Of a DNA stretch of 64,000 bases, positions 45-41,300 are shown piece by piece. The stretch covers positions 43,250 to 107,249 of the forward strand of contig JAZKBO010000006.1 of assembly GCA_040388575.1 (NCBI GenBank), read 5' to 3'. The notes under the pieces were generated by a model, which saw nothing but the letters and a program-made list of their open reading frames with translations, was not told where the DNA came from and searched no databases. Each line of letters starts with the position of its first letter. Positions within the stretch are counted from its first letter, which is position 1. The position numbers and the translations under genes are program-made. Origin of the DNA: Patescibacteria group bacterium. Its GTDB lineage: Bacteria; Patescibacteriota; Minisyncoccia; Phycocordibacterales; UBA9973.

Positions 45-965
45 CTAGTATTTAGGTATAGGCTTGGCGTACAAGTTTGGATTGATAGTTTCGCTGAAGC
101 AATAGTGCCCGGCTGGGTGCGTCCATGATTCGTATCCAATTGGCCTCATATATATATTGGGTTTGGTAGCGGGCGGAGTTGCAGTGTTAAATTCTGCGCA
201 GACATCATATGTTTGAGCCCCAGTCTTTGTGTATTCGTAAGGCAGATTAGATTGAGGATCTACCGCGGGCACATAATAATCACTCGCTGTTGCCTCCTGC
301 AGGCTCGCTGGTAATGACCCGTGAGTAGCATAATATGATTCTAGGCTGCCCTTAATATTTGTTAAGTCATTTACCTTTTGTTCGTCATATTTCATCAGCC
401 TTTGACTGCGAGGTGAACCCAAGACGGCAAAACCCCAAACAATTGCTGCAATTGCTATAACCAAAGCAATTATTCTAAACATATTTCGGCTCTTAGCGGT
501 TAATTTATTTCGGGCATCAGCAAGGTAGTAATAGAATATCAGACCGACTATTATAAATAAGGCTAGGACTTTCAATAAAAATGCCGTAGTCACTTCCTGG
601 CCGTCAATAAAATAATAAAGAATTGTAATAAGATCGATGGCGAGGGTAATGCCGGCGAGGAATAGGGTAATATATGTGAGCCATTTATGGATACCAGAAT
701 TTTGTTTATCAGGATTTACTTTGTAATCCTTCTCCAGTAGCCACATGAGGAGGATATAGATCGGGAAGAAAATAATGATCGTAGCTACTGGCCAACTTAT
801 AGAGGTCGAGCCAAGAAAACTATAGCCATTATTAATTTGCGGATAGGCATTGTTGATAATGGTAAAAAGTAAATTTACTAAACTCACAACTGTAGTGTAT
901 AACGCAACGATAGCTCCTAGATTAATAAATATATCTTTTGCACTTGTTTTTGATTGTGGTTCCAT
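45..965 (-). CDS. Multi-pass membrane protein (about 5 predicted TM helices) with a C-terminal extracytoplasmic tail; function unknown.
   Basis: 306-aa ORF. The first ~180 aa contain repeated hydrophobic stretches (IVALYTTVVSLVNLLFTII, ATIIIFFPIYILLMWLL, ITLFLAGITLAIDLITILYYF, LALFIIVGLIFYYYL, IIALVIAIAAIVWGFAVL). The soluble C-terminus has a Cys pair. No recognisable catalytic motif. Confidence 0.5.
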   Translation of the reverse strand: MEPQSKTSAKDIFINLGAIVALYTTVVSLVNLLFTIINNAYPQINNGYSFLGSTSISWPVATIIIFFPIYILLMWLLEKDYKVNPDKQNSGIHKWLTYITLFLAGITLAIDLITILYYFIDGQEVTTAFLLKVLALFIIVGLIFYYYLADARNKLTAKSRNMFRIIALVIAIAAIVWGFAVLGSPRSQRLMKYDEQKVNDLTNIKGSLESYYATHGSLPASLQEATASDYYVPAVDPQSNLPYEYTKTGAQTYDVCAEFNTATPPATKPNIYMRPIGYESWTHPAGHYCFSETINPNLYAKPIPKY

Positions 966-1001
966 GACATATATTATATCATATAGGAAACACTCAACAA
1001 T

Positions 1002-1343
1002 ATGCGTAAGAAATTCGAAGATTTTTCAACAAAATTAACAAAATGGATTGGTTCACCCCAGTCCATTGTGCTACATACCATTTTCTTTATCGCAATGTTT
1101 TGCCTGCGATTTTTTGGTGTAAAGTCAGATGATATCTTGCTCATATTAACGACAGTTGTGTCGCTTGAGGCCATCTACCTCTCTATTTTTATTCAAATGA
1201 CGGTGAATAGACACACTGAGGAGCTTGAAGAAGTCTCTGAAGATATCGAAGAGATCCAAGAAGATGTGGAGGAAATTCAAGAAGACGTGGAGGGGATCCA
1301 GGAGGAAGTAGAAGATGAAGATATTGACGAAGATCCGGAATAA
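1002..1343 (+). CDS. Small DUF1003-like membrane protein with a C-terminal acidic tandem-repeat tail.
   Basis: 113-aa ORF. Two hydrophobic segments are followed by 'SLEAIYLSIFIQMTVNR', which resembles the DUF1003 core. The C-terminus carries EEIQEDV heptad repeats encoded by an imperfect 21-nt tandem repeat at about 1240..1320. Confidence 0.45.
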   Translation: MRKKFEDFSTKLTKWIGSPQSIVLHTIFFIAMFCLRFFGVKSDDILLILTTVVSLEAIYLSIFIQMTVNRHTEELEEVSEDIEEIQEDVEEIQEDVEGIQEEVEDEDIDEDPE

Positions 1344-1344
1344 A

Positions 1345-2232
1345 TTATTTCTTACCTTCAGAAATCCACAGCGCAGTATTAGCAAGAGGTATCAGCCTGC
1401 CTTTTGATTTTTCTTTAAGACACAACTCCCCTTGCTCAATATTGCCTGCAAAACTTTTCATGGTTTCCTCTAGTGCATAACCGAGAGAAAGTGACGAAGC
1501 ATCGATGGCGTATGAAGTAACAATTACAAATAGTGGATCAGGGTTAAGAACTTTTTTTACAGCTTCCAAGAGCTTGGGCAAATCTTCCTCAATCTTCCAG
1601 GTTTCCCCTTTTGGCCCGCGGCCGAACTTGGGCGGATCCATAATAATTGCATCATATTTATTACCGCGCTTTTCCTCTCGAGCTAAAAATTTCAAAACAT
1701 CATCCTCTATCACACGCATTCCAGTAAGTCCCGATAATTTCTCATTTTCTTTAGCCCAATCTAGGGACTGTTTCGAGGCATCTAGGTGCGTAACTTCCGC
1801 ACCAGCACGCAGCGCAAATAAACTGGCTATGCCAGTGTAGCCGAATAGATTTAAAAATTTAATGGGTCTGTTAGAACTTTTTATTTTGTCTTCAATAAAA
1901 TCCCAGTGCGCGGCTTGCTCTGGAAAAAATCCAAAATGTCGAAATGGCGTCGGTTGCGCTAAAAATTTAATACCATTGTATTCCATAGACCATTTCCCTT
2001 CAATTTTATTCTTCATTTGCCAGCCTGCCTTCTCTCCGCCTTTTGAACTAGCAAATCTGCCGTCAGCATCAGCCCAGTCTTTTTTACCAAGAGTTCTAGG
2101 CCAGACTGAGCCCTCATAAGGACGCACAAATTTATACGGGCCAACACGCTCCAGCTTCTCTCCATCACCTGTATCTAGGAGTTCGTAATCACCGAGGTCG
2201 TCTTCATAAAAAATTTTAATTTGGATATTCAT
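1345..2232 (-). CDS. Class I SAM-dependent RNA methyltransferase, RlmI/RlmK-like (PF10672-type).
   Basis: 295 aa. SAM-binding motif I-like 'LNLFGYTGIASLFALRAGAEVTHLDAS' and the catalytic 'IIMDPPKFG' (DPPxF) motif typical of RlmI/RlmK/YccW-type rRNA methyltransferases. Confidence 0.6.
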   Translation of the reverse strand: MNIQIKIFYEDDLGDYELLDTGDGEKLERVGPYKFVRPYEGSVWPRTLGKKDWADADGRFASSKGGEKAGWQMKNKIEGKWSMEYNGIKFLAQPTPFRHFGFFPEQAAHWDFIEDKIKSSNRPIKFLNLFGYTGIASLFALRAGAEVTHLDASKQSLDWAKENEKLSGLTGMRVIEDDVLKFLAREEKRGNKYDAIIMDPPKFGRGPKGETWKIEEDLPKLLEAVKKVLNPDPLFVIVTSYAIDASSLSLGYALEETMKSFAGNIEQGELCLKEKSKGRLIPLANTALWISEGKK

Positions 2233-2282
2233 TGTGTTTAGTATAGCAATTTTCGACTATAAAGTTGAGGTATAAAAATATT

Positions 2283-2312
2283 CAGCTCGGGTGCCGTGAG
2301 GCGCCCGAGCTG
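2283..2312 (-). terminator. GC-rich hairpin with a 12-bp stem (one G-U pair) and 6-nt loop, followed on the minus strand by a U-rich tract. Putative intrinsic terminator downstream of pyrF.
   Basis: cagctcgggtgc-cgtgag-gcgcccgagctg. On the minus-strand transcript the stem is followed by AAUAUUUUUAUAC. The site is 35 nt downstream of the pyrF stop and at the left GC-content boundary. Confidence 0.6.
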
Positions 2313-2346
2313 GGTAGATAGACGAATGAACGATAGTAACTGCGAA

Positions 2347-3063
2347 CTACGACGACGGATCGGCTTCCTCGGCCATGGCCTCGAAAGCCGCAACCGGATC
2401 TTCGGCATTCGTGAGCTGGCTGGCGCCGACGAGTTCATCCGCGCCGTCGGCAACCGCTTGAGCGGGGGTGCCAGAACGCTTCTGCTGGCCGAATGCAACG
2501 CCTACCGAACGAGTGCCGGGTACGGCGAACCTCATGCCGGGCAGATCCGCTGACTGCTTGAGCATCTTCACTTCCTGCGCAGAGCAGACGACGGTGCGCA
2601 CGCCGGCCTCGTGAGCCATCAACGCGAAATCGTGAACGATTTGCAGACGCGTACGATCATTGCCGTAACTGCGCGCGATTTCAGCATCATCGAGCGAGGT
2701 GAGCACGGTGACGGCGTAGATTTCAGCCAACTGTTCACCAGTAGTGCTGAAAGTTGCGTCGACCGCTGCCTTCATCATCGCAACGCCACCAGAGGCGTGC
2801 ACAGTGATGATCTTGGCGCCGTTCCTAACGAGCGCCTTGACCCGCAGTGCCACAGTTCCCGTGGTGTCGTGAAGTTTATAGTCGACCCACGGCACCTCGA
2901 TTCCCGCGTTCACCAAGTCACGGATGATGCTTGGGCCGTAACTGTCGAGCAGGTCGTGGAGCTTCACTGCCCGAAGCCACTGCCCGAGCCTTCTTGCAAG
3001 GTTAAGCGCTCGTCCTCGTGAAAGGCCGTCGAGCGCCAAGACGATTCTTTTCATTCGACTCAT
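2347..3063 (-). CDS. pyrF: Orotidine 5'-phosphate decarboxylase.
   Basis: 'RIVLALDGL', 'VKLHDLL' and 'VDYKLHDTTGT' match the ODCase signature DxKxxDIxxT. The start is placed at Met18 of the six-frame ORF (MSRMKRIV) because an AAGGAG Shine-Dalgarno sits 6 nt upstream. The gene lies in the high-GC segment, 20 nt downstream of the pyrE-like stop. Confidence 0.8.
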   Translation of the reverse strand: MSRMKRIVLALDGLSRGRALNLARRLGQWLRAVKLHDLLDSYGPSIIRDLVNAGIEVPWVDYKLHDTTGTVALRVKALVRNGAKIITVHASGGVAMMKAAVDATFSTTGEQLAEIYAVTVLTSLDDAEIARSYGNDRTRLQIVHDFALMAHEAGVRTVVCSAQEVKMLKQSADLPGMRFAVPGTRSVGVAFGQQKRSGTPAQAVADGADELVGASQLTNAEDPVAAFEAMAEEADPSS

Positions 3064-3083
3064 GTTGTTCTCCTTATCTCGGG

Positions 3084-3809
3084 TTAAAGACGATAGGCTT
3101 CCATGAGCGCGCACAGGCGCGGCCAGTTCTTCTTCACTTCGAACTCGACCCTTCCGGCGGCGACGTCCGCCGCTACTGCAGGATCATCCTGTTCGTACTC
3201 CGGATACGCCTGCCGAATGGAGGCAACGACAGGCAGGCCCTTGTAGTTCGTGTCATAGATCGGCGAGCGATTGAGCGCGCCGACCAGGAGCACGACGTTG
3301 GCACCACTCGCGGCGATTTCCGCCAGGGTGTTGTCCGTGTTCTGGAAGTTGTTGTAGACATCTTCCGCGATGGCGACGCGTTCACCCTTCTCGAATTCGA
3401 AGCGCGAGAGGTCCCAGGTGTATTCCTGTTTCTTGCCCGGTTCCGTCGGCTTCGGCTTCTTGTCGGCATACACGAACCGGGCGTCGACAACACGTGCGAG
3501 CTCCTGACCGAACGTCCGGCCACCGTGCGGAATACCGCAGATGGTGTCGAACGTATGGAGGAGATCCTCCCGCTGAAGTTTGTGGTGCACCGCCCTCGCA
3601 AACGCCTGGACAACAAAAGGGTGCGGTTCGATCTTGGCGAAGTTGAAGTAAATGTCCCCCACCAGGTTCCGCCCTTTGCCATCCTTGCCGGCGTAGGCGA
3701 CGAGGTCGCCCTTACGCACATCCCCAAGCTTGGGGCAGACGTAAACTGCGTTGCAGTGCTTACCCAGATCAAGGAGACTCTCCCCCGATTCTGGAACAAT
3801 GGTACTCAT
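3084..3809 (-). CDS. pyrE: Phosphoribosyltransferase-fold protein, putative (divergent) orotate phosphoribosyltransferase.
   Basis: 241 aa, immediately upstream of pyrF and in the same high-GC block. 'ICGIPHGGRTFGQELAR' resembles the PRTase flexible-loop region. 'GERVAIAEDVYNNFQNTDNTLAEIAASGANVVLLVGALNRS' has the PRPP-binding-motif architecture, but the acidic residues are atypical. An AAGGA Shine-Dalgarno sits 8 nt upstream of the ATG. Confidence 0.5.
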   Translation of the reverse strand: MSTIVPESGESLLDLGKHCNAVYVCPKLGDVRKGDLVAYAGKDGKGRNLVGDIYFNFAKIEPHPFVVQAFARAVHHKLQREDLLHTFDTICGIPHGGRTFGQELARVVDARFVYADKKPKPTEPGKKQEYTWDLSRFEFEKGERVAIAEDVYNNFQNTDNTLAEIAASGANVVLLVGALNRSPIYDTNYKGLPVVASIRQAYPEYEQDDPAVAADVAAGRVEFEVKKNWPRLCALMEAYRL

Positions 3810-3931
3810 GATTAGTCCTTTTCAATGTTCAAATTCATGCGCTTTAAGCCCCGCAGTTAGGCCGCCGATACTATCGGCTCTGCCGGTAGACTATCGCAAA
3901 ATTCATTTATAGTAAAGTATGAAAATTAGTT

Positions 3932-3961
3932 CAGCCCCGACACTTAAGTGTGTCGGGGCTG
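3932..3961 (-). terminator. Perfect 12-bp GC-rich hairpin with a 6-nt loop between pyrD and the pyrE-like gene. Putative terminator or attenuator.
   Basis: cagccccgacac-ttaagt-gtgtcggggctg. T/U-rich sequence follows on both strands (tgtgttttcttg on plus, AACUAAUUUUC on minus). Located 31 nt downstream of the pyrD stop. Confidence 0.55.
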
Positions 3962-3991
3962 TGTGTTTTCTTGATCCTTTATACGTCGCGA

Positions 3992-4912
3992 TTAGGCGAC
4001 GCCGAGAGTTTCCCGATAGTTCCTCTCCTTGACGATGGAGGTTGGCTTCCATGGAGTGCGCAAGTGGATTGCGCCGAAGCTGACGGCCTTGGCGCCGAGG
4101 TCGTAGGCCCGGGCGACGTCATCGTATTCCATGATCGACGGAGCGATGACAGGAAGTGCTCCAAGACACGAGAGCTTAAAGACGGCAGCCCAATTCAACA
4201 TCTGCGCCGGCTTGCCGGAAACGCCACCACCACCGGTACCTTCCTTACCGATTTTGGCAAGTGGGCTCTCGGTGCCGTCTGGAAATGCGAGTTTCCATGG
4301 CACACTGTTGAGCGAAATAGCTTCCGCTATCCCCTTGAGTCCTTCCGCAATTGCAAGGTAGTCCTGGTCGACGGAGACCTTCACGATCACCGGCAAGTTC
4401 GTCATCGCCTTGACCGCCTTCACGCTCCGAATGATCGTTGCTGTCTGCGTCGCATGATCCGTATTTGGGCACGAGACGTTGACCTCGATCGCAACGAAGT
4501 CAAAGCCATTCAGCCTCTTTGTCATAATCACCAGATGCTCTTCGGTGCCAAAGATAGAGGCGGCGAGTTTAACTTTCTTGAAGTCAAGCTTCGGCCCGAC
4601 TTCCTTGCACCACCATTCGTAGCCGGGGTTGTAGAGCCCGACTTTGTTGGCGGCGCCGCCGTTTGGCAGCAACCGCACGCACGAACGCGGACTGAAGGGT
4701 AACCACGTCCATGGACGAATCCAGGAGAGGTTGCTCACCGGGTAAAGCCGGGGCTCGAACGTCAGCGTCCGGATGAAGTTGGTAAAGAGCTTGGGATCAA
4801 TGAAACCCAGCCACACGAGTAGCCACTCCCACCACCAACCCTTACCGCGGAAACCCAGCGATCCGCTTGCGGTCACATTCTCGAGTTCATGCCCATTGGA
4901 CAACGGAATCAT
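3992..4912 (-). CDS. pyrD: Dihydroorotate dehydrogenase.
   Basis: Signature 'IEVNVSCPNT' (DHOD active-site motif), 'GGGGVSGKP', and the C-terminal FMN-binding 'VIAPSIMEYDDVARAYDLGAKAVSFGAIHL'. A strong Shine-Dalgarno (AAAGGGGAG) sits 7 nt upstream. Lies in the high-GC segment. The Trp-rich N-terminal ~40 aa are unusual. Confidence 0.75.
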   Translation of the reverse strand: MIPLSNGHELENVTASGSLGFRGKGWWWEWLLVWLGFIDPKLFTNFIRTLTFEPRLYPVSNLSWIRPWTWLPFSPRSCVRLLPNGGAANKVGLYNPGYEWWCKEVGPKLDFKKVKLAASIFGTEEHLVIMTKRLNGFDFVAIEVNVSCPNTDHATQTATIIRSVKAVKAMTNLPVIVKVSVDQDYLAIAEGLKGIAEAISLNSVPWKLAFPDGTESPLAKIGKEGTGGGGVSGKPAQMLNWAAVFKLSCLGALPVIAPSIMEYDDVARAYDLGAKAVSFGAIHLRTPWKPTSIVKERNYRETLGVA

Positions 4913-5013
4913 AGAAACTCCCCTTTCGACGAGCTAGGATTTGCCGCGACGCGGCTCCAAAGATAGACTAATCAACTTTAGCCTTAAAGGCAAATTGAAA
5001 AATCAGTAAGAAT

Positions 5014-5832
5014 TTAGATTAAAAATTCCACGACATCGCCGTCCTGCACAATATATTCTTTACCTTCAGTACGGACCCAACCTTTTTCACGAGCTTTGGC
5101 ATATGAGCCGGCTTCAAGCAACTTTTCATATTCGATCACCTCTGCACGAATAAACTTTTCTTTAAAGTCATTGTGGATGGCGCGGCCGGCCTCGGGTGCT
5201 GTGCTGCCACGCTTGGTGGTCCAAGCCCGAGTTTCATCCTCACCGGTAGTTAGAAATGTAATTAATCCCAGGAGGTCATAGCCAGCTTGGATAAGATTAT
5301 CTAGGCCAGTACCAAAAACTGGATCCACTTCAATATGCGGACCAGGGAGTTTGCTGATGAAATCAATTTTGGTACTTTCGGCAGCTTCGGATTTATTCAG
5401 TACATATACTGTAGGCTTTTTAATCCCCGCTTGTTCAAGCTCAAAATTTATTACTTCAATATCAAAAAGCGGATCCACTTTATCATGCACGTGGATAGTA
5501 TTGGAATCTTCAAAAATTCGCACCACTTCAATGATGGCGTCCACCTCACGAATATGGGATAGGAATTTATTACCGAGCCCAGCCCCCTCGCTCGCCCCCT
5601 TTACCAAGCCTGCAATATCTACGAACTCCACCACTGCTGGGATAACCTTTTTGGATTTACTCATAGCAGCAAGCTTATCGAGCCGTTCGTCCGGCACGGG
5701 CACAATACCTACTGATGGATCAATAGTACAGAATGGATAATTCTCCGCCGGTACGCCCTTCTTGGTCAGCGCATTAAAAAGCGTGGACTTCCCCACATTC
5801 GGCAGGCCTACAATGCCAATCTTTAAAGACAT
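5014..5832 (-). CDS. ychF: Ribosome-associated Obg-like ATPase YchF, a minimal form lacking the coiled-coil or helical insertion domain.
   Basis: G1 'GIVGLPNVGKSTLFNALT', G3 'DIAGLVKGASEGAGLGNKFL' and G4 'NKSE' are present. The C-terminal TGS domain ends in the conserved 'GDVVEF' found in YchF/OLA1. The protein is only 272 aa versus about 363 aa for canonical YchF. Confidence 0.85.
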   Translation of the reverse strand: MSLKIGIVGLPNVGKSTLFNALTKKGVPAENYPFCTIDPSVGIVPVPDERLDKLAAMSKSKKVIPAVVEFVDIAGLVKGASEGAGLGNKFLSHIREVDAIIEVVRIFEDSNTIHVHDKVDPLFDIEVINFELEQAGIKKPTVYVLNKSEAAESTKIDFISKLPGPHIEVDPVFGTGLDNLIQAGYDLLGLITFLTTGEDETRAWTTKRGSTAPEAGRAIHNDFKEKFIRAEVIEYEKLLEAGSYAKAREKGWVRTEGKEYIVQDGDVVEFLI

Positions 5833-6461: not shown

Positions 6462-7022
6462 ATGAAACAAAACAAAAATGTCGTAGGGGCAGACTTTTTC
6501 GCGCGTTTATGGGAGGAAAGCTGGACATATATTAAAACTGTAGTGGACGTGGTGCACGAGCCAATACTCATTCTAGATAAGAACCTTATGGTGATGGCTG
6601 CAAATGAATCCTTCTACCAGAAGTTTCAAGTAGAAGCTAAAGACACGGAAAAGAAGGTAGTCTACGAACTTGGCAATGGTCAATGGAATATTCCTGCCCT
6701 GCGGAAGCTGCTGGAAGATATTCTGCCGAAAAATACTTTTTTTAAGGGTTTTGAGGTGATACATGAATTCCCTTTTATCGGTGAAAAGATCATGATTTTA
6801 AATGCCCGACAAATTCATACCAAGGATGACACTGCGGCAAAATTATTCCCGCCTATTATACTCCTGGCAATTGAAGATGTAACCGAGATGATGGAAGTAG
6901 CTAAAACTCTCGCCAATCATACCAGTCAATTCCAAAGTAAACTTACCCAGCGCACAGAAAAACTAGAATCCCATATTGGAAAACTAGAAAAAGAGATAAA
7001 TCTACTCAAGAAAAAAATTTAA
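6462..7022 (+). CDS. PAS-domain protein with a C-terminal coiled-coil. Possible sensor or partner of the divergently transcribed ECF sigma factor.
   Basis: 186 aa. 'VHEPILILDKNLMVMAANESFYQKF...EKKVVYEL...IMILNARQIH' fits a PAS fold. The C-terminus carries the heptad repeat 'KLESHIGKLEKEINLLKKKI'. No transmembrane segment. Confidence 0.55.
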   Translation: MKQNKNVVGADFFARLWEESWTYIKTVVDVVHEPILILDKNLMVMAANESFYQKFQVEAKDTEKKVVYELGNGQWNIPALRKLLEDILPKNTFFKGFEVIHEFPFIGEKIMILNARQIHTKDDTAAKLFPPIILLAIEDVTEMMEVAKTLANHTSQFQSKLTQRTEKLESHIGKLEKEINLLKKKI

Positions 7023-8554
7023 GGGGTTGGCGGAGGCGGTAATTCCGGAGGTACGATAGGAGACGCTGGTGGGATGGCCATCGTATTAATTGGGAAAGAG
7101 GAATGGACAATTTCTCCATCGTTCAATTCAACTACAGGAAGTATTTTAACCTCGGGCATTATCATTTTATGTAATTCTGGTTGAATTATTGGCTGGGGCG
7201 CAATATAAGGTTTGATTACAGGTTCCGGTATTGGAATAGGCTTTGGCTTTATTTCGAACTGCACCCTTTCTTCGAAAGTTTTTGTTGTAGCTTCTGCCTG
7301 TTCATTCTTTTCATTGCGCATTAGTTTACCTGCCAGGCGCATGTAGCGGATGATGTGGTGACCAAATAAGTAGTGGAGTATTAACATAATGAGTCCGAGC
7401 AGGATTATGCCGAGTAGTATATAGACCAAATTATCCTGGATGAATTTTGAAATTTCTTGTGGCAAGCGCACATCAATAGACTCGTCCCGCACGTTGCCAG
7501 CTTTGTCCACAGCACGCACTATTACCTCAAGCGAGGCCTTGCCAGAGAGCGGCACTTGGAAAGGGCTCTCCGCATTTACGAATACTGGTGAGGCGGTGGT
7601 GGGCTGGCTTTTATCTATTACTCCGACTTCATAGTGATCCACGCCGGAGAGATTGTCAGTGGTGAAGAAGGAAACGAGAGTCTGCTCGGCATTAATTGTG
7701 GCAGCTACCAGGAAATTTGCTTTCGGGGTAAATTCCGCTGGCGGCGCAGTATCTATACGTATCAGGAAGTGCCCGGTAGTACTCCAAACGTTAGCCTTAT
7801 TTGCTTTGATATGGAAATACCAAAGGCCATCCGAAAGGGATTCGAAGGTTTTTGTACTTTCATCTGTTTCAATTATATTGTCAGGAATAGTGAAAGGTTT
7901 ATCATCTAACTCATAACTGAAGCCAGTCACGCCCGGATCCTTGATCCAAGAAAGTACCGGAGTATTGTTGTTGTACCAATCGGATTGAATTGGATGCGTC
8001 TCCGAAAATACCTGCACGCCTTCCGGTGCCTTGGTTAAAATAGTGTATTCCGCCCGGCCGAGGTCCACTTGGGCGCGCGTACCTAGGCCATCATTTAACA
8101 AAATGTTGGAACTGGCTGCAACGGAGACAGTGGCCGCTCCTGGAGCCTTGGCCATGAAAGTTATAGTGCCAATGAGGCCGGAACCAGTAGTAATACCATT
8201 CGGCACTACACCCACATAGCTGGCAGTACCGCGAGTATTATCAAATTGTGGCGGCTCCACCCAAACCCCGATGATGGATGTGCCACCGGTGGAGTTAATG
8301 ATGGAGAGTTTATCTTTATTGAAATTTACTCGGACTTCAATGCCGTTGATACTCCGGCCTTTGGTGTTGAGGAGTATCGGCACTTGGAAAGTAGAACCCT
8401 CCACAAAGGACCCGGAGCGTGGAGAAAATCCAACTTCAACTTGTGCCAAGAGCTTACTAGCGTCTACATTGACGGCCTGGGCATAAGCCTTCAAGCCAGA
8501 GAATATTATCAGGAAGGTTAGGAAATATATTATTGTGCGCTTAAGAATCAACAT
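7019..8554 (-). CDS. Surface scaffold protein with a signal peptide, a cohesin-like domain, Ig-like domains, one C-terminal TM helix and a Pro-rich cytoplasmic tail.
   Basis: 511 aa. An N-terminal signal (…AYAQA). The cohesin-like beta-domain 'GSFVEGSTFQVPILLNTKGRSINGIEVRVNFNKDKLSI…VWVEPPQ…ILLNDGLGT' is shared with the next two genes. TM 'LVYILLGIILLGLIMLILHYLF' is followed by a KPxP/Pro-rich tail. Paralogous to 8541..9668 and 9623..10516 (shared 'SGVDHYEV' vs 'SGIDHFLV' motif). Confidence 0.55.
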   Translation of the reverse strand: MLILKRTIIYFLTFLIIFSGLKAYAQAVNVDASKLLAQVEVGFSPRSGSFVEGSTFQVPILLNTKGRSINGIEVRVNFNKDKLSIINSTGGTSIIGVWVEPPQFDNTRGTASYVGVVPNGITTGSGLIGTITFMAKAPGAATVSVAASSNILLNDGLGTRAQVDLGRAEYTILTKAPEGVQVFSETHPIQSDWYNNNTPVLSWIKDPGVTGFSYELDDKPFTIPDNIIETDESTKTFESLSDGLWYFHIKANKANVWSTTGHFLIRIDTAPPAEFTPKANFLVAATINAEQTLVSFFTTDNLSGVDHYEVGVIDKSQPTTASPVFVNAESPFQVPLSGKASLEVIVRAVDKAGNVRDESIDVRLPQEISKFIQDNLVYILLGIILLGLIMLILHYLFGHHIIRYMRLAGKLMRNEKNEQAEATTKTFEERVQFEIKPKPIPIPEPVIKPYIAPQPIIQPELHKMIMPEVKILPVVELNDGEIVHSSFPINTMAIPPASPIVPPELPPPPTP

Positions 8555-9668
8555 CTTTTATTTTCTTGTCGATTATCTTTTCGGCATCGGTAATATCCTT
8601 CTTTATTTCAGTTAAAGTTTTATGATCTACGATATCCTCTTGTAGAAGGTCGAAGGACTTGTGAATAATGTCTTCCGTCTCGGCGAGTTTATGCTTATCC
8701 ACCCTCGTGCCTCTAGTTTTATCACGTTTTAGATGGTAATAAATACGAACAAGTAAATAAATAATGGCCAGAATAAGTAATAGCAATAAAATCCAAAATT
8801 CCGGAGTAATATCGGAAAATATTCCGCCAACTTTTACAATAATAGTATTGGACTGATCGCTGTTAGATTTATCTGGTCTTACCATTACCGCCGTTACAGT
8901 GTAATCACCACGTTTGAGGGATGTTGGAACAAGGATATTGAAGCTGCCGTCGGGCTCCGCCACGCCTACGATGTATACTTTTGCTCCCGCTGGCGATGTA
9001 AAGGTGACCAGTGTCTGCGCAGAAGGATAATCCGATGTGCCTAATATAGCGGGCGCGCCATACCTTGTGCCATACATTATTTCTGGCGCTTTGAGTGTAG
9101 GCTTCGGCTGAGGTTCTTCAACTGGAGTAGGGGTAGGCGTAGGTGTGGGGGCCGGATTTGGAGCAGGTGCTGTAGCTTGGGTTATCACATAATTCCCTCC
9201 CGTGAGAGCACCAGTGATGTCGGTACCCTCTCCGTCATTGGCTAGAATTTGTCCGGACTGAAATGTGATAGCCCCAGCACCTGCCTTTATGGCGCGAAGG
9301 TTAAGTGTAACGACTGTGCCAGAGGAACCACCGAAACCGCCGAGCGCGACGCCCTCGAACTTAACTGTGTTGCCATTGATCTTAGGCTCCGTAACCCAGA
9401 AATCCAAAACGGAATTGGTTTTAAATACTGATTCGATGGAAAAAACTGAAGTAGGCACAACTACCACCCCCGACACTGCGTTGAATGGAGTATTGTTGGA
9501 AGTTGCAATAACCTTGACGGTAACCCTGTCGCCAGTTTGATAATTCCCGGAGCTCGGACTAATAGATAGCGTAGCAGCAAGTGCCGGCCGCGGCAAAAAA
9601 TAGAACAATAAGACAAATACTGCTAACCCAAAAATTTTCGCAGCTTTTTTTTGAGCATTAGGGCGCAT
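8541..9668 (-). CDS. Surface scaffold protein with a signal peptide, a cohesin-like domain, a PT linker, an Ig-like domain, a C-terminal TM helix and a charged cytoplasmic tail.
   Basis: 375 aa. Signal '…PRPALAA'. Cohesin-like 'LSISPSSGNYQTGDRVTVKVIATSNNTPFNAVSGVVVVP…DFWVTEP…ILANDGEGT'. Linker 'PAPNPAPTPTPTPTP'. TM 'FWILLLLLILAIIYLLV' is followed by a Lys/Asp-rich tail. Confidence 0.55.
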   Translation of the reverse strand: MRPNAQKKAAKIFGLAVFVLLFYFLPRPALAATLSISPSSGNYQTGDRVTVKVIATSNNTPFNAVSGVVVVPTSVFSIESVFKTNSVLDFWVTEPKINGNTVKFEGVALGGFGGSSGTVVTLNLRAIKAGAGAITFQSGQILANDGEGTDITGALTGGNYVITQATAPAPNPAPTPTPTPTPVEEPQPKPTLKAPEIMYGTRYGAPAILGTSDYPSAQTLVTFTSPAGAKVYIVGVAEPDGSFNILVPTSLKRGDYTVTAVMVRPDKSNSDQSNTIIVKVGGIFSDITPEFWILLLLLILAIIYLLVRIYYHLKRDKTRGTRVDKHKLAETEDIIHKSFDLLQEDIVDHKTLTEIKKDITDAEKIIDKKIKDVDS

Positions 9669-10516
9669 GCTATAAGTAGTATAACAGGAATTAACACTTG
9701 CAGGAAGAGCGCAAATGAATTTTGGGCGCCTAATTTAACAATTCTTTCATTTTGAGACTTATCGATGGCTTTTATGGTAATTTTACTCTTTAAGGTTTGA
9801 TCATGGAGGAGGTAGGGGCTAACGGCAACTTGATATTTACCTCCCAAGCCCCAGGTATACCAAGGACTTTCACGTACTAGAAAGTGGTCTATCCCTGAAC
9901 CTTTATCGGTAGTGCTAAATACCAGGAAGTGTTGGCCGTCATAGATGCTGGCGTCGTTGGCCACATATGCATTGAAGTCTTCCGGCGGATTAGTATCAGC
10001 TACATTAAGATCGGTAGGTGCGTTTGTGACAGCGCTCGTAACTGTAAGAGTTAGCGGCACACCAGTTGTTGAAATTTTTGTGCCTAGCCCGTCATTTTTT
10101 AAAATTTGTAAATTACTCCAGTCGAGCTTACCCACGCCTTGTGCCTTGGCCTCAAGAATAAAAGAAAATAGGAACTTTTTCTCACCCGTGAACCCACCAG
10201 TAGTAATACCAGAGAAGGATATTTTACCAGTACCATCTTGGTGCGGTCGCTCTACCCAGAAATTTATTACAGAATTTCCATCACGGATTTCTTTAAGTTC
10301 AAAAATTTGGGATGGGTAAGTAATGGACCCCTCTACTGCATTTACTGAATCCTTCTGGGGGTCTAGCCACACATCTACTAGGAAACTTTCCTTTTGGGAA
10401 AAGCTGTTTTTATCCGTATGGAAGGAAATCTGCGCAGCTAAAGACACGCCCGGGGAAATAAAGAGGAGTATGAGCAAGATAATAAATTTTTTCATAATTG
10501 TTTTTTTGATTTTCAT
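9623..10516 (-). CDS. Surface scaffold protein with a signal peptide, a cohesin-like domain, an Ig-like domain and a C-terminal TM anchor.
   Basis: 297 aa. Signal '…GVSLAAQ'. Cohesin-like 'FLVDVWLDPQKDSVNAVEGSITYP…NFWVERP…ILKNDGLGT'. C-terminal TM 'LFLQVLIPVILLIACALML' followed by KKKLRKF. Confidence 0.55.
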   Translation of the reverse strand: MKIKKTIMKKFIILLILLFISPGVSLAAQISFHTDKNSFSQKESFLVDVWLDPQKDSVNAVEGSITYPSQIFELKEIRDGNSVINFWVERPHQDGTGKISFSGITTGGFTGEKKFLFSFILEAKAQGVGKLDWSNLQILKNDGLGTKISTTGVPLTLTVTSAVTNAPTDLNVADTNPPEDFNAYVANDASIYDGQHFLVFSTTDKGSGIDHFLVRESPWYTWGLGGKYQVAVSPYLLHDQTLKSKITIKAIDKSQNERIVKLGAQNSFALFLQVLIPVILLIACALMLKKKLRKFLG

Positions 10517-10537
10517 AAAATAATTTGCTAACTGTAA

Positions 10538-11602
10538 TTAGCCAGTCCAGTAATAGGCCATGATACTGAAGTCTATCAGGTTTATCACACCGTCGCCATT
10601 TAGATGCGCTTTTTCCTTAATTGCAAAAGCTGGACTCAAAGCTCTCTTGTACCAGAAAGCTGCGATAGAAAAGTCGATCAAGTTACAACGAGAGTCTTCA
10701 TTGAGGTCACATTTTGTAAGTTTACCAGGGGCTTCAGCTAGAACATTCTTAGTACCCACAATAAAGTGCGCCAAGTCACCAAAAGAACTAATCTCATTAC
10801 CCACCATGGCCTTACTCCTAGTACTATGGTTACCCATCGCAAGTACGGAAGTATCGAAATTGTGAAGGTATATTCCATCTTTGTCGCTGGTAGTATTGTT
10901 GAAAAATTCTTGTGCGGAATTCACGCTAATAACCACCGTGGCTGCTTGAGCACTCTGGCCGAAAATGGTTATATTGTCACCCTGCTTAACCTCGCTTTTA
11001 TCCACGGCAATAGTTGGCGCGATAAATATGCCGCCGATATTAGTCGTTACTCCCTCTGTGATATAGATCTGGAATGTAAATGGGCTCGAGCGCATTCCAC
11101 TTTTGTCTTCACCATAAACGGAAAAAGTATAGTCACCCGATGCGAGCCCGGAAAGTGTCGCGGTAAATTTACTATCGGGACCTGCAATAGTGGAGAGCAC
11201 CAGCTGCCCATCTTTTAGGAAGCTTACTTTAGATAATGGATATGCTCGGCCCGAAAAAGTAACGCCAGTTATGACTCCAGTGTTGCCACCACCTCCGCCG
11301 CCACCGCCACCAGGTGTGGGAGTAGGAGAGGGAGTTATGGACGCACCAGAGAAGTAAAGGAATCCATAATGTCCTAAAAATGTAGTGGAAGAATTTGCTC
11401 CTGTTAGGAGGGGGTCGAGTGATTGAAACATGCGGAAAGTGCCAGATGCACCATAGCCACCGCCCACACCTATTACCGGATCACGCAGAATAAAATTGCT
11501 GCTGGTTAAATCTTTAGCATCAGCTCTACTTAAACCCAAAAATCCTAACAGAACAAAAGTTAAAAGACATAAAAAAAAATTAATGTATGGCTTCTCGATC
11601 AT
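10538..11602 (-). CDS. Secreted protein with a Gly9 run, Ig-like beta domains and a C-terminal type-I dockerin module.
   Basis: 354 aa. Signal peptide (…LSRADAK). Linker 'PSPTPTPGGGGGGGGGN'. The C-terminal duplicated Ca-binding dockerin segments 'CDLNEDSRCNLIDFSIAAFWYK' and 'HLNGDGVINLIDFSIMAYYW' match the type-I dockerin pattern DxNxDGxxNxxDxxxL. Confidence 0.7.
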   Translation of the reverse strand: MIEKPYINFFLCLLTFVLLGFLGLSRADAKDLTSSNFILRDPVIGVGGGYGASGTFRMFQSLDPLLTGANSSTTFLGHYGFLYFSGASITPSPTPTPGGGGGGGGGNTGVITGVTFSGRAYPLSKVSFLKDGQLVLSTIAGPDSKFTATLSGLASGDYTFSVYGEDKSGMRSSPFTFQIYITEGVTTNIGGIFIAPTIAVDKSEVKQGDNITIFGQSAQAATVVISVNSAQEFFNNTTSDKDGIYLHNFDTSVLAMGNHSTRSKAMVGNEISSFGDLAHFIVGTKNVLAEAPGKLTKCDLNEDSRCNLIDFSIAAFWYKRALSPAFAIKEKAHLNGDGVINLIDFSIMAYYWTG

Positions 11603-11608
11603 AAAAAA

Positions 11609-12049
11609 TTAGAGACTGCCGCCTTTGTACTGCTTGATAGCTTCCAACACCTTAGAATCACTCTTCATATTTTCCCAGAACAAAACTTTATCTTTTTCGA
11701 TAAACATCTGACCCTCCGGACCATGCAGCTCCCCGCCTAGTTGCACTAGTTGAATTTTCTGCTGTGGATTAGCAACTGGAACAGGGCTTTTGGCATCAGT
11801 GACCACGCCTTCTGGCTGCAGTGCATCTTTAGCTTCAAGATAATAAACGTCTTTTAAAACAATCCAGGAGCCAGATGTGGATAATTTACCAAAATAAGCC
11901 TGCCCGTTAGTTAGAAAAACTGCTTGATAGGAATTCTCATTCTGTGGAGAAAATAAACTACTACCACCGAAGAAAAAATAGAAGGCGCCTGCGCCGATAA
12001 TAATTATTAGTAATACTACCCATACTGACTTCTTTATTCTGTATTGCAT
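11609..12049 (-). CDS. Hypothetical N-terminally membrane-anchored small protein (146 aa).
   Basis: N-terminal TM 'VWVVLLIIIIGAGAFYFFF' followed by a soluble domain with no recognisable motif. It is embedded co-directionally between the dockerin-protein gene and the paralog array. Confidence 0.4.
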   Translation of the reverse strand: MQYRIKKSVWVVLLIIIIGAGAFYFFFGGSSLFSPQNENSYQAVFLTNGQAYFGKLSTSGSWIVLKDVYYLEAKDALQPEGVVTDAKSPVPVANPQQKIQLVQLGGELHGPEGQMFIEKDKVLFWENMKSDSKVLEAIKQYKGGSL

Positions 12050-12132
12050 CGTTTACATTATAACATAAGTAAGGTGCGAGGGAACAGGTATGAGGTATCA
12101 GCCTTAATAACTCTACGCTCTAGCCTCCTCCC

Positions 12133-14610: not shown

Positions 14611-14626
14611 ATATACTATTTTACCA

Positions 14627-16885: not shown

Positions 16886-16890
16886 ATTTC

Positions 16891-19552: not shown

Positions 19553-19740
19553 TTACGGGCTTGCACCTCCCCCACCGCCTGAGCCACCGCCACCTTGCGA
19601 GCCGCCGCCGCCGGAGCCGCCATTATCTCCCTGATCACCAGAGCCGCCAGAGCCGCCGCCAGAGCCGCCGCCGCCTTGAGAACTACCGCCGCCAGAGCCG
19701 CCGCCAGATGCTCCACCCCCGCCACCGCGTGAGATAAAAT
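19553..19740 (-). repeat. GC-rich simple-sequence tract (GGN/GCC codon repeats) encoding the poly-Gly/Ser C-terminal tail of the giant protein.
   Basis: ggagccgccgcc / gccaccgcc repeats. Locally far higher GC than the surrounding gene. Confidence 0.6.
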
Positions 19741-37077: not shown

Positions 37078-38133
37078 TTAATTACAATTTGCAGGCGGTG
37101 TTGAAGACGCTGATAATACACCGTCATTTGCAGTAATATAAGTAACTCCCGATCCGTCGCTGTCGCCCATGATAATGCATCCAGGGTTTCCACTAGCACT
37201 ACCTAAATGAACGGTTGTACTATTGTCACCGGAAAAATTACTAACATTAGATAATACGGAAAAAGTACCTCTATGGCCTGTCCCATGAACAGCACCTATT
37301 ATTATTTGAGCATCACCAGAGTTTGCAGAACCATAGGCATCTCCAGTAGACAGAATAAATTGACCACCATGTCCACCACTGATTGTGCCTGTTGCTGCAC
37401 CAGCAGCTATACTAATGTTGCCCCCATACTGGTCTCCGCTTCCAGTACCAATTTGCATTGAGCCTCCATCGCCGGACACTATACCTCCGCTTCCAGTACC
37501 AATTTGCATTGTGCCCCCAATACCCGTTCCAGCACCGGCGTTACCTGCCAAAAACAATACATTACCTCCGTTAGAATTATTATTTCCCTCCCCTGAAACA
37601 ATTCTAACGGCTCCACCATCCTGATTTGGAGTTGTGGAAGTAAGAACATTTAAATCCATTCCATCTTGTGAAAAATTCACTGTGCTAGCTTTTACTTTAA
37701 GCTGTCCTGCACTTCCAGTTATCTGTCCTTGAATATTTAAATCACCCCCTATATACGCATCCCCCCCGTTATCCAAACCACCGATAAATAATACGTCGTT
37801 TACTTCATCCCAGTTCAAATTATTACTTTGAGCAAAAACGGATCCATTAAAAAATGGAATTGCACCAACTTCAAATCCTGATGCATCTAGTCCTAAACCA
37901 CCTCGATTTGGCGCAAGCAGTCCATTCCATCCCAAGGTATGGGTAGTACCCGATGAAATTATTTTTAAATTGGTATCGTTCACAAAAGTCTGATCTGCTG
38001 TATTTAGACCATTTAGAGTTTTGATCATTGACGCTGCCTGAACGCTAGACATAGGCAAAATAGTAATTGCTAATGCAACCAGAAACAATTTTTTATATGC
38101 TTTCATGAAATTTTTAAAAACTTTAAGAAACAT
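37078..38133 (-). CDS. Secreted glycine-rich repeat protein.
   Basis: 351 aa. Signal peptide (…SSVQAAS). The Gly/Thr/Ser/Asn-rich body has the near-tandem repeat 'MQIGTGSGGIVSGDGGSMQIGTGSGDQYGG', reflected in a ~48-bp nucleotide repeat near 37440..37540. C-terminal Cys pair. It sits 8 nt upstream of the giant gene. Confidence 0.6.
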   Translation of the reverse strand: MFLKVFKNFMKAYKKLFLVALAITILPMSSVQAASMIKTLNGLNTADQTFVNDTNLKIISSGTTHTLGWNGLLAPNRGGLGLDASGFEVGAIPFFNGSVFAQSNNLNWDEVNDVLFIGGLDNGGDAYIGGDLNIQGQITGSAGQLKVKASTVNFSQDGMDLNVLTSTTPNQDGGAVRIVSGEGNNNSNGGNVLFLAGNAGAGTGIGGTMQIGTGSGGIVSGDGGSMQIGTGSGDQYGGNISIAAGAATGTISGGHGGQFILSTGDAYGSANSGDAQIIIGAVHGTGHRGTFSVLSNVSNFSGDNSTTVHLGSASGNPGCIIMGDSDGSGVTYITANDGVLSASSTPPANCN

Positions 38134-38246
38134 AATAATAGAAACTTTTTGATGCCTTATTAGCTAAATTATACCATTGTGTTATAAGGGGATTCTAGTA
38201 AAAGTGTGGATAAATAAGGGCGGTTGGTGTACAATATTTCAAAGCG

Positions 38247-39008: not shown

Positions 39009-39018
39009 ATAAATTTTT

Positions 39019-41277: not shown

Positions 41278-41300
41278 GTTAATAATATGAATTAATAATT

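What the first reader, a model, noticed from the sequence alone, without database searches (positions are those of the whole stretch)
2270..4950. High-GC (~60%) pyrD-pyrE-pyrF cassette sharply embedded in a ~40-45% GC genome, a likely horizontal acquisition
GC content jumps precisely at intergenic boundaries (about 2270 and about 4950). Between them lie dihydroorotate dehydrogenase, a PRTase-fold gene, probably a divergent pyrE, and OMP decarboxylase. These genes have strong AGGAG-type Shine-Dalgarno sites and are flanked by two GC-rich 12-bp hairpin terminators. The composition, codon usage (GC3-rich, Trp- and Arg-rich proteins) and terminator style all differ from the neighbouring genes. CPR-type bacteria usually lack de novo nucleotide biosynthesis, so acquiring the last three steps of UMP synthesis from a high-GC donor (for example Actinobacteria or Proteobacteria) would be a notable metabolic gain. 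Both junctions fall exactly between genes, which argues against a random chimeric mis-assembly.
Basis: partly seen in the sequence, partly recalled or inferred. Interest (0 to 1): 0.65.

Follow-up and report, generated by a model that had tools for sequence, protein, structure and literature searches.

The report
Mobile pyrimidine cassette with new leader RNA
The GC-rich block is a real three-gene unit for the last steps of UMP synthesis, shared and exchanged among Patescibacteria rather than imported from Actinobacteria or Proteobacteria, and it carries a conserved pseudoknotted leader RNA, apparently undescribed, that may be a new riboswitch for pyrimidine synthesis.

Summary
Window 2286-4955 is 57% GC against 42-45% around it, and it is the only 1-kb outlier in 64 kb. 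Third-codon-position GC (GC3) is 0.68-0.74, against 0.26-0.47 for every other gene. Both junctions are real: an independent assembly is identical across them, and a sister lineage has the same insertion site.

All three proteins have their closest relatives (up to 76-90% identity) in Patescibacteria, among hundreds of homologues. The usual layout is pyrD-pyrC / pyrE-like-pyrF. This window has lost pyrC.

The GC excess is a property of the whole family. The cassette is richer in GC than its flanks in 90 of 93 loci. PyrD-pyrC modules that are 86-92% identical sit in unrelated genomes of 33-54% GC, so the cassette moves within the phylum.

The most interesting result is new. A roughly 75-nt 5' leader (window 3810-3882, minus strand) consists of a hairpin plus an H-type pseudoknot with strong covariation. 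It was found about 70 times, nearly always directly upstream of pyrD or pyrE-type genes. It has no match in Rfam 15. It is a candidate riboswitch for pyrimidine biosynthesis.

The parts
3992..4912 (-). pyrD-like class-1 dihydroorotate dehydrogenase (306 aa; NCBI MES2315739.1)
   Evidence: Pfam DHO_dh scores 46.8 bits against a gathering cut-off of 27, but NCBIfam equivalog scores are far below their cut-offs. The NxSCPN catalytic Cys, the VKVS Lys, LNS and GGVSG align to L. lactis PyrDB and are invariant across 25 homologues. The AF2 model has pLDDT 86.8, and all 50 listed Foldseek PDB hits are DHODs, with TM up to 0.74.
4913..4993 (-). pyrD promoter (-35 TTGCCT 4988-4993, 17-nt spacer, -10 TAGTCT 4965-4970) and a degenerate leader (GGAG, then hairpin CCGC/GCGG 4944-4954, then SD GGGGAG). 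The pseudoknot is absent.
   Evidence: Read from the sequence. It has the same promoter architecture as the motif-bearing loci. The covariance model (CM) gives no hit here even with filters off.
3932..3961 (-). Intrinsic-terminator-like hairpin after pyrD (12-bp stem, 9 G-C pairs, T-rich tail)
   Evidence: I17. It is conserved in sequence with the hairpin that follows pyrC in other cassettes.
3888..3916 (-). Promoter of the PRTase-pyrF unit: -35 TTTACT (3911-3916), 17-nt spacer, -10 TAGTCT (3888-3893)
   Evidence: The -35/17-nt/-10 arrangement recurs upstream of nearly all 59 distinct motif instances. The transcription start site (TSS) is inferred at about 3881; it has not been measured.
3810..3882 (-). 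Conserved 5' leader RNA. It reads CAGAG; P2 hairpin 3864-3878 (GCCGAU/AUCGGC); H-type pseudoknot 3838-3863 (helix A 3860-3863 with 3847-3850; helix B 3852-3855 with 3838-3841); conserved block UUGAACAUUGAAA 3820-3832; SD AAGGA 3816-3820; AUG 3807-3809.
   Evidence: CM R1 scores 41.8 bits, E = 6e-9 over the whole window with filters off, and this is the only significant hit. R2 scores 43.5 bits. There is no Rfam 15 match at E <= 1.
3084..3809 (-). PRTase-like protein, a probable divergent orotate phosphoribosyltransferase (241 aa; MES2315738.1)
   Evidence: It is below the Pfam and TIGRFAM cut-offs. The family is very conserved, with 81% mean column identity, and has EDVYNNFQNTDNT in place of the canonical PRPP loop. 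The best structural matches are OPRTases, but the model is only moderate (pLDDT 65). It is always clustered with pyrD, pyrC and pyrF, and with pyrB in Lichenibacterium.
2347..3063 (-). pyrF, orotidine-5'-phosphate decarboxylase (238 aa; NCBI aa from Met at 3054; MES2315737.1)
   Evidence: OMPdecase scores 110 bits and TIGR01740 scores 101 bits against a cut-off of 92.3. The DxKxxD motif (VDYKLHD) aligns to solved PyrF structures. This is the minority 'window type' pyrF, only 29% identical to the pyrF of L002.
2283..2312 (-). Terminator-like hairpin after pyrF (13-nt arms, 92% complementary, followed by AATATTTTTATA); this is the left edge of the GC island
   Evidence: I13. It is conserved in L084. 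The change point falls at 2286.

Best explanation
The GC-rich block is a genuine part of this Patescibacteria genome. It comprises two transcription units: pyrD-like alone, and leader RNA + pyrE-like PRTase + pyrF. Together they convert dihydroorotate to orotate, OMP and UMP.

The block is a pyrC-less derivative of a modular cassette (pyrD-pyrC plus pyrE-like-pyrF). That cassette is widespread in Paceibacteria-type Patescibacteria. It carries its own promoters, terminators and a pseudoknotted 5' leader, and it is exchanged laterally within the phylum.

The GC excess has two components. The smaller one is intrinsic to the encoded proteins (higher GC1+2). The larger one, in this window, is a third-position excess. 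I infer that this reflects acquisition from a GC-richer Patescibacterium before the split from the L084 lineage, with little amelioration since.

The leader most likely controls translation or mRNA stability of the pathway genes in response to a pyrimidine-pathway signal. That mechanism is inferred, not shown.
For: Composition.

Assembly: 100% identical independent contig; L084, 80.5% nucleotide identity across both junctions.

Gene identity.

Origin within Patescibacteria.

Canonical four-gene layout including pyrC (TIGR00856, 300.6 bits against a cut-off of 292.95).

No pyrC or pyrB anywhere in the window.

The spacer with terminator, promoter and leader that follows pyrC elsewhere follows pyrD here.

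Family-wide GC excess. In 90 of 93 loci the cassette is richer than its flanks. The median excess is +7.8 points, the regression slope is 0.40 and the Wilcoxon p is 9e-17.

Direct evidence of transfer. Identity of 86-92% (79-84% to three more distant loci) is confined to the 2.0-kb pyrD-pyrC module, in genomes whose flanks are 33-54% GC and otherwise unrelated. The tree agrees.

The cassette can also be GC3-poor (0.27-0.31 in L013, L025, L072), so a high GC3 is not obligatory.

Leader RNA.
Against: No integrase, tRNA or convincing flanking repeat marks the island.

The sister lineage L084 has the same GC3 (0.67-0.73) despite only 56-71% identity at four-fold sites. That pattern also fits maintenance by selection.

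The deviations are almost never negative, which random exchange would not predict.

In some genomes other conserved genes are as GC-rich as pyrD (rpoBC in L001). The cassette's GC3 is the highest in its locus in only 31% of loci.

The donor lineage cannot be named.

Enzyme activities and the TSS have not been measured.
Confidence: 0.7

Rival explanations
1. The cassette is inherited vertically, and its high GC, including GC3, is kept up by gene-specific selection or constraint. Candidates are codon or mRNA-level selection on these genes, or biased gene conversion. On this view the GC excess is not a transfer scar.
For: The excess is nearly universal and one-sided: 90 of 93 loci, never 2 points or more below the flanks. 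Window and L084 keep equal GC3 after substantial synonymous divergence. GC1+2 is also raised, 0.50 against 0.44. rpoBC is as GC-rich as pyrD in L001.
Against: Several cassettes have GC3 of 0.27-0.41, at or near host level (L013, L025, L072, L002), so there is no obligatory constraint. Near-identical modules sit in hosts of 33-54% GC with unrelated flanks. Genomic context differs from locus to locus. In the window, conserved YchF has a GC3 of only 0.43.
Confidence: 0.2
2. One reading: a recent import of pyrD-pyrE-pyrF from a high-GC Actinobacterium or Proteobacterium.
For: GC of 57% and GC3 of about 0.70 would suit such donors. A related pyrD-like clade does exist in Lichenihabitans/Lichenibacterium (Alphaproteobacteria, 65-74% GC).
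Against: The Lichenihabitans proteins are more distant: 52-55% identity for pyrD and 35-41% for the PRTase. They carry a different pyrF subfamily (TIGR02127). Patescibacteria relatives reach 76-90%. The promoter, terminator and leader RNA are shared only with Patescibacteria cassettes; the CM finds nothing in the Lichenihabitans loci.
Confidence: 0.03
3. An assembly or binning chimera has joined a high-GC fragment to a low-GC contig.
For: The composition changes abruptly at both ends.
Against: An independent Logan assembly of SRR26324622 is 100% identical over 5472 bp spanning both junctions. A different run (SRR26786769) gives a diverged copy, 80.5% identical, with the same ychF and methyltransferase junctions.
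Confidence: 0.01
4. On the leader only: it is not a metabolite-sensing riboswitch. It is instead a binding site for a regulatory protein (PyrR-like or other), or a 5' stabilising structure.
For: No ligand has been tested and no clear switching expression platform was found. The known pyr regulation in Bacillus is protein-mediated (my own knowledge). A 5'-terminal hairpin (P2) could simply protect the mRNA.
Against: The unpaired nucleotides are highly conserved (AGAG, ACA, cAAA, UUAAA, UUGAACAUUGAAA) around a compact covarying pseudoknot, which is typical of aptamers. The motif also precedes non-homologous pyrE and pyrF-pyrE fusion genes in loci that hold no PRTase-like gene. There is no Rfam PyrR match.
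Confidence: 0.35

Closest known systems
Class 1 dihydroorotate dehydrogenases (L. lactis PyrDB 1ep1/5ue9; class 1A enzymes of Lactococcus and trypanosomatids)
   Same: Same TIM-barrel fold (TM 0.65-0.74). The catalytic Cys in NxSCPN, the FMN and orotate-binding Lys and Asn positions, and the GGxSG motif are all present.
   Different: Sequence identity is only about 20%, and scores are far below every NCBIfam DHOD cut-off. There is a Trp-rich insert (WWKPWTW.PFSP..C) between the first strands. No PyrK electron-transfer subunit gene lies nearby, so the electron acceptor is unknown.
Orotate phosphoribosyltransferase PyrE (Thermus-type TIGR01367; H. pylori HP1257 4paw; B. cenocepacia 4ohc)
   Same: Type I PRTase fold, with OPRTases as the best structural and sequence matches. 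It has a GRN..G.IYFNF motif that I judge, from memory of E. coli PyrE, to resemble the OPRT SGRKSPYFFN motif. It is always clustered with pyrD, pyrC and pyrF.
   Different: It is below the Pfam and TIGRFAM cut-offs. The PRPP loop reads EDVYNNFQNTDNT instead of DDVxTxGxT. It is about 240 aa long with extra N- and C-terminal elements.
PyrR-binding attenuator of Bacillus pyr operons (Rfam RF00515), and the TSS-switch hairpins of E. coli pyrC and pyrD (my own knowledge)
   Same: A cis-acting 5' leader that controls de novo pyrimidine genes. Several copies occur per gene set.
   Different: There is no Rfam match. The architecture is a hairpin plus an H-type pseudoknot rather than an anti-terminator stem-loop. 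No downstream terminator exists, so control is probably at translation or mRNA stability.
Small H-type pseudoknot riboswitches (preQ1-I/II, SAM-II, guanidine-III; my own knowledge)
   Same: A compact pseudoknot of about 26-28 nt with A-rich loops, close to the ribosome-binding site. Loop nucleotides are conserved and the stems covary.
   Different: The sequence is unrelated and matches no Rfam model. The gene association is different (pyrD, pyrE, pyrF). The ligand is unknown, and there is an extra 5' hairpin and a conserved 3' block, UUGAACAUUGAAA.
Classical horizontally acquired genomic islands
   Same: Sharp GC and GC3 discontinuity at intergenic boundaries. Distribution is patchy, and near-identical copies sit in unrelated genomes.
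   Different: There is no integrase, tRNA target or clear direct repeats. The block is shared with a sister lineage at the same site. It carries housekeeping-type metabolic cargo only.

Membership tests
Dihydroorotate dehydrogenase, class 1 (PF01180) | Pfam DHO_dh score above the gathering cut-off | tested here: met
   46.8 bits against 27
Dihydroorotate dehydrogenase, class 1 (PF01180) | NCBIfam PyrD equivalog or subfamily cut-offs | tested here: not met
   The best score is NF005574, 71.9 bits against 269; TIGR01037 scores 51.6 against 270
Dihydroorotate dehydrogenase, class 1 (PF01180) | Catalytic Cys base in N-x-S-C-P-N, and the conserved Lys/Asn FMN and orotate ligands | tested here: met
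   Alignment to 1ep1_A. N145, S147, C148, K178, N202, G229/G230/S232/G233 are invariant in 25 homologues
Dihydroorotate dehydrogenase, class 1 (PF01180) | DHOD TIM-barrel fold | tested here: met
   Model pLDDT 86.8; all 50 listed Foldseek PDB hits are DHODs, E = 2e-13, TM 0.73
Class 1B DHOD specifically | Adjacent PyrK (FAD/2Fe-2S) subunit gene | tested here: not met
   No such gene lies in the window block or in the related cassettes
Orotate phosphoribosyltransferase (PyrE) | Curated HMM cut-offs (PF00156, TIGR00336, TIGR01367) | tested here: not met
   22.3 against 26.3; 17.2 against 106.8; 37.7 against 150.25
Orotate phosphoribosyltransferase (PyrE) | Canonical PRPP-binding loop (acidic pair followed by T-x-G-x-T) | tested here: not met
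   The family-invariant sequence is A-E-D-V-Y-N-N-F-Q-N-T-D-N-T
Orotate phosphoribosyltransferase (PyrE) | Type I PRTase fold closest to OPRT | tested here: inconclusive
   The top Foldseek hits are OPRTases (E = 4.5e-7), but TM is only about 0.45-0.5 and model pLDDT is 65
Orotate phosphoribosyltransferase (PyrE) | Operon context with the other UMP-pathway genes and no other pyrE | tested here: met
   The layout is D-C-E-F in Patescibacteria and D-C-F-E-B in Lichenibacterium
Orotate phosphoribosyltransferase (PyrE) | Catalysis of orotate + PRPP -> OMP | not testable with these tools
   Needs an enzyme assay or complementation
Orotidine-5'-phosphate decarboxylase (PyrF) | TIGR01740 and Pfam cut-offs, and the D-x-K-x-x-D active-site motif | tested here: met
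   101 bits against 92.3; 110 bits against 27; VDYKLHD aligns to LDLKFHD of 3ldv
Horizontally acquired genomic island | Compositional discontinuity, including at synonymous sites | tested here: met
   GC3 z = +6.7
Horizontally acquired genomic island | Mobility hallmarks (integrase, tRNA target, flanking direct repeats) | tested here: not met
   No tRNA in 64 kb. The only candidate is a 17/21-nt repeat at 2316-2336 and 4961-4981, which may be chance
Horizontally acquired genomic island | Absence from close relatives | tested here: not met
   The sister lineage L084 carries it at the same site
Horizontally acquired genomic island | Near-identical copies in unrelated genomes (family level) | tested here: met
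   86-92% nucleotide identity confined to the pyrD-pyrC module, in hosts of 33-54% GC
Any Rfam 15 RNA family, including PyrR RF00515 | Covariance-model match | tested here: not met
   No hit at E <= 1 in window 2000-5300 or in six strong loci
Riboswitch (generic) | Conserved structure supported by covariation | tested here: met
   P2 is 97.8% paired with 5/5 pairs compensatory. Helix A is 92-98% paired and helix B 84-89%. Each pseudoknot helix was also tested on an alignment made by a model that did not contain it. There are 94-104 double-change cells against 25-35 in shuffles (0 of 500 shuffles reach that). Slid controls are 19-44% paired
Riboswitch (generic) | Consistent position in the 5' UTR of genes of one pathway | tested here: met
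   The 70 hits at E <= 1 fall in about 1.8 Mb. All significant ones lie directly upstream, on the same strand, of the pyrD-like gene, the PRTase-like gene, another pyrE, or a pyrF-pyrE fusion
Riboswitch (generic) | Direct, selective ligand binding and a switching expression platform | not testable with these tools
   The MFE fold shows no clear alternative structure. Biochemistry is needed

The most novel reading that the evidence does not exclude
The conserved hairpin-plus-pseudoknot leader upstream of the pyrD and pyrE/pyrF genes is a previously undescribed riboswitch class. It would sense a pyrimidine-pathway metabolite such as UMP/UTP/CTP, orotate, dihydroorotate or PRPP. That would make it the first riboswitch dedicated to de novo pyrimidine synthesis. 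It would travel with a laterally mobile, self-regulating pyr cassette in Patescibacteria.
Probability: 0.4. Interest if true: 0.8.

Novelty: new variant of a known kind. Interest (0 to 1): 0.6.

Why it matters
Patescibacteria are generally described as unable to make nucleotides; one recent survey reports that 93% of genomes lack the de novo pathways and that the genes are scattered (bioRxiv 10.64898/2026.06.21.733656).

This analysis shows that a compact, self-contained module for the last steps of UMP synthesis is common in Paceibacteria-type genomes. The module has its own promoters, terminators and leader RNA. It is exchanged between lineages, and it is built from divergent DHOD and PRTase subfamilies that curated models do not name. 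KEGG-style surveys may therefore undercount it.

The leader RNA gives a concrete, synthesisable 75-nt candidate for a pyrimidine-responsive riboswitch. No such class appeared in Rfam 15 or in the papers I could search. It would also be a native regulatory part for genetic tools in Patescibacteria.

The family-wide GC3 excess is a useful test case for telling transfer from selection in reduced genomes.

Tried and rejected
1. An outer 'P1' helix (AAUGUUC with GAACAUU) was part of my first model. I rejected it as an RNA helix. Its 5' strand overlaps the -10 box of a promoter conserved upstream of nearly all instances, so it lies upstream of the inferred TSS. It is only 71-73% paired, and one position is unpaired in about half of the sequences.

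2. PyrR attenuator or any other Rfam family: no hit.

3. A second leader copy upstream of the window's pyrD: none was found, even with filters off. Only the promoter and a P2-like hairpin remain there.

4. pyrC or pyrB elsewhere in the window: none at tblastn E <= 10 beyond noise.

5. Mobility marks: there is no tRNA. The one edge-to-edge repeat (17/21 nt) may be chance.

6. Anti-SD pairing of the helix A 3' strand (CCUU) with the SD: it is not conserved in the AGCC/GGCU variants, so I dropped it.

7. Autoregulation by the PRTase-like protein: unlikely, because the motif also precedes other pyrE types in loci that hold no such gene.

8. Literature searches for a pyr-associated riboswitch, or for any description of this cassette in Patescibacteria, found nothing specific.

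9. The names 'Saccharibacteria', 'Lentisphaerae', 'Planctomycetota' and 'Janthinobacterium' on some MAG records were not taken at face value, because composition and gene content point to mislabelling or mis-binning.

Full report
**Observation.** The GC jump is real. Window 2270-4950 is 57.0% GC against 44.6% for the rest, and it holds the only 1-kb windows more than 2 SD above the mean. A two-boundary fit puts the edges at 2286 and 4955. These positions fall in the terminator hairpin after pyrF and in the 5' leader of pyrD, so both are intergenic. Three minus-strand genes fill the block. Their GC3 values are 0.70, 0.74 and 0.69, while every other gene in the window has 0.26-0.47. Against 20 flanking ORFs the cassette mean of 0.708 lies 6.7 SD above 0.362. 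Both GC-rich hairpins exist, at 3932-3961 and 2283-2312. The first is internal, between pyrD and the PRTase gene, rather than at the edge.

**What the genes are.** pyrF is orthodox (OMPdecase 110 bits, TIGR01740 above its cut-off, DxKxxD motif).

The pyrD-like protein passes Pfam DHO_dh but falls far below all NCBIfam DHOD cut-offs. It keeps the NxSCPN catalytic cysteine and the Lys, Asn and GGxSG ligand positions. A confident model (pLDDT 86.8) matches only DHODs among its 50 listed PDB hits. No PyrK gene accompanies it.

The PRTase-like protein is below the Pfam and TIGRFAM cut-offs. Its family has an invariant EDVYNNFQNTDNT where OPRTs have the PRPP loop. Its best sequence and fold matches are still OPRTases.

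Gene context settles the pathway. In other Patescibacteria the order is pyrD-like, pyrC (TIGR00856, 300.6 bits, above its cut-off), PRTase-like, pyrF. In cultured Lichenibacterium minor it is pyrD-like, pyrC, pyrF (subfamily 2), PRTase-like, pyrB. I therefore read the two divergent proteins as the DHOD and OPRT of a UMP pathway. This is an inference from fold, motifs and context; activity has not been shown.

**Not an artefact.** An independent Logan assembly of SRR26324622 is 100% identical to window 335-5806. A contig from another run (L084, SRR26786769) aligns at 80.5% identity over its whole 2.8 kb. The alignment includes the 3' end of ychF and the start of the methyltransferase gene. The junctions are biological and predate the split of two lineages.

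**Where the cassette comes from.** The best 120 homologues listed for each protein carry Patescibacteria names (Paceibacterota, Minisyncoccia, Kaiser-, Taylor-, Staskawicz-, Moraniibacteria) wherever a name is given. Two stray single hits are the only exceptions. Identity to the nearest non-self relatives reaches 76%, 90% and 79%. A scan of species-representative genomes gave 80 loci. Most are Patescibacteria. There is also one coherent clade in Lichenihabitans/Lichenibacterium, at 52-55% identity for pyrD and on Mb-sized contigs. That clade shows inter-phylum sharing of the pyrD-like gene, but it is not the source of the window copy. An actinobacterial or proteobacterial donor is not supported.

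**Layout and losses.** The cassette is modular. D-C, E-F, D-C-E-F, D-E-F, E-F-D-C and D alone all occur. The window and L084 lack pyrC. No pyrC or pyrB exists anywhere in the 64 kb. The spacer that follows pyrC elsewhere (terminator, promoter, leader) follows pyrD here, which points to loss of pyrC from a D-C-E-F ancestor. The window's pyrF belongs to a minority type, seen after the PRTase gene in 6 loci against 42 for the other type. The cassette is therefore mosaic.

**The GC excess is a family property.** In 93 non-redundant Patescibacteria-type loci the cassette is richer in GC than its flanks in 90, and by at least 5 points in 68. The median excess is +7.8 points. Cassette GC is 0.516 +/- 0.044 and flank GC is 0.432 +/- 0.057. 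The regression slope is 0.40 and the Wilcoxon p is 9e-17. No locus is 2 or more points below its flanks.

Part of the excess is protein-driven: GC1+2 is 0.50 against 0.44. Part is synonymous: GC3 is 0.53 against 0.42, the highest in its locus in 31% of 45 loci.

Transfer is directly visible. The pyrD-pyrC module of L009 (flanks 33% GC) is 86-92% identical in nucleotides to those of L008 (a Kaiserbacterium, 54% GC), L010, L011 and L020. The similarity ends at the edges of the 2.0-kb module.

Cassettes with a GC3 of 0.27-0.31 also exist, so a high GC3 is not obligatory.

My reading is that the window copy came from a GC-richer Patescibacterium before the split from L084. Two things keep selection on composition alive as a rival (about 0.2). 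The excess is one-sided. And window and L084 have equal GC3 despite only 56-71% identity at four-fold sites.

**A conserved leader RNA.** Aligning the spacers upstream of the PRTase gene showed strong conservation. With 74 further loci from metagenomes I defined a motif in this order:
- (C)AGAG
- hairpin P2
- ACA
- an H-type pseudoknot: helix A, AGGC with GCCU; helix B, GCGCU with AGCGY; loops cAAA and UAA
- a linker
- UUGAACAUUGAAA
- the SD and AUG.

A covariance model without helix A (R1) found 59 hits at E <= 1 in 0.65 Mb and 11 more in 1.14 Mb. The few near the threshold are probably noise. All significant hits lie directly upstream, on the same strand, of one of four gene types: a PRTase-like gene, a pyrD-like gene, a different and more canonical pyrE (L005), or a pyrF-pyrE fusion (L027). 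There are none in the Lichenihabitans loci.

On the R1 alignment, helix A was not in the model, yet it is 92% paired with 3 of 4 pairs compensatory. On an alignment from a second model lacking helix B (R2), helix B is 84% paired with 5 of 5 pairs compensatory. On that same alignment helix A shows 27 G-C against 22 C-G at one position, and P2 is 98% paired. Overall, 86% of cells pair against 19-44% in slid controls, and double-change cells number 94-104 against 25-35 in shuffles (0 of 500 shuffles reach that).

A conserved -35/17-nt/-10 promoter sits immediately upstream of nearly every instance. That places the inferred TSS at CAGAG and removes my initial outer helix P1 from the RNA.

Rfam 15 has no match. 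The papers I could search describe nothing similar.

The window has one copy, at 3810-3882 on the minus strand (41.8 bits, E = 6e-9). In it, P2 is GCCGAU/AUCGGC, helix A is GGCC/GGCU and helix B is UGCG/CGCA. Upstream of the window's pyrD only the promoter and a P2-like hairpin remain.

**How it probably works.**
- Shown: two promoter-terminator-bounded units, and a structured 5' UTR shared by both halves of the pathway across many genomes.
- Inferred: the leader modulates translation initiation or mRNA stability, because there is no terminator between it and the SD. It would respond to a pathway signal, either a small molecule (riboswitch, about 0.4-0.45) or a protein (about 0.35).
- Inferred: the organism would make UMP from dihydroorotate or orotate, unless pyrC lies elsewhere in the genome.

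**Limits.** The E-values of my models are rough. Some MAG names are unreliable. The donor lineage, the TSS, the ligand and the enzyme activities are all untested. Only 64 kb of this genome was visible.

Noticed in passing
window 19553-37069 and 46304-62437 (minus strand): Two giant ORFs of 5838 and 5377 aa with unusually high second-position GC (0.56-0.58). The N- and C-terminal 1500-aa fragments have no Pfam domains, apart from an LVIVD repeat in the C-terminal fragment of the second ORF.
   Followed up: partly
window 7019-19524 and 39019-46259: Runs of ORFs of about 750-880 aa follow each giant gene. Two of them (12133-14610 and 14627-16885) end in dockerin type I domains. Nearby proteins have a weak cohesin match (7019-8554) and Big_6 plus dockerin (10538-11602). 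This suggests a cohesin-dockerin surface assembly in a Patescibacterium.
   Followed up: partly
window 2316-2336 and 4961-4981: A direct repeat (17 of 21 nt) sits at the two edges of the GC island. The upstream copy is the spacer/-10 part of the pyrD promoter. The downstream copy lies between the pyrF stop codon and its terminator. It may be chance, or a remnant of another promoter/leader copy (compare the E-F-D-C order in L005).
   Followed up: partly
L039-L049, L055, L062, L063 (Lichenihabitans/Lichenibacterium; e.g. L045 10001-14611): Alphaproteobacteria of 65-74% GC carry a cluster of pyrD-like, pyrC, pyrF (subfamily 2), PRTase-like and pyrB. Their pyrD-like gene forms a single clade inside the Patescibacteria diversity on a midpoint-rooted tree. 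This points to an inter-phylum transfer whose direction is unresolved.
   Followed up: partly
L027 6116-7471: A fused pyrF-pyrE gene (451 aa, UMP-synthase-like but in the reverse domain order) in a Patescibacterium, preceded by the same leader RNA.
   Followed up: partly
L085 4306-6966: A DnaB helicase gene interrupted by an intein with a LAGLIDADG endonuclease, in a groundwater Patescibacteria contig next to the pyr cassette.
   Followed up: no
window 37500-39500 and 62000-64000: Low-GC stretches (0.36-0.40) around an Hsp20 gene (38247-39008) and a lamin-tail-domain protein gene (62575-63351).
   Followed up: no
window 5014-5832: The YchF homologue is only 272 aa and matches the 368-position TIGR00092 profile in two stretches, so it appears to lack the central part of canonical YchF.
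   Followed up: no
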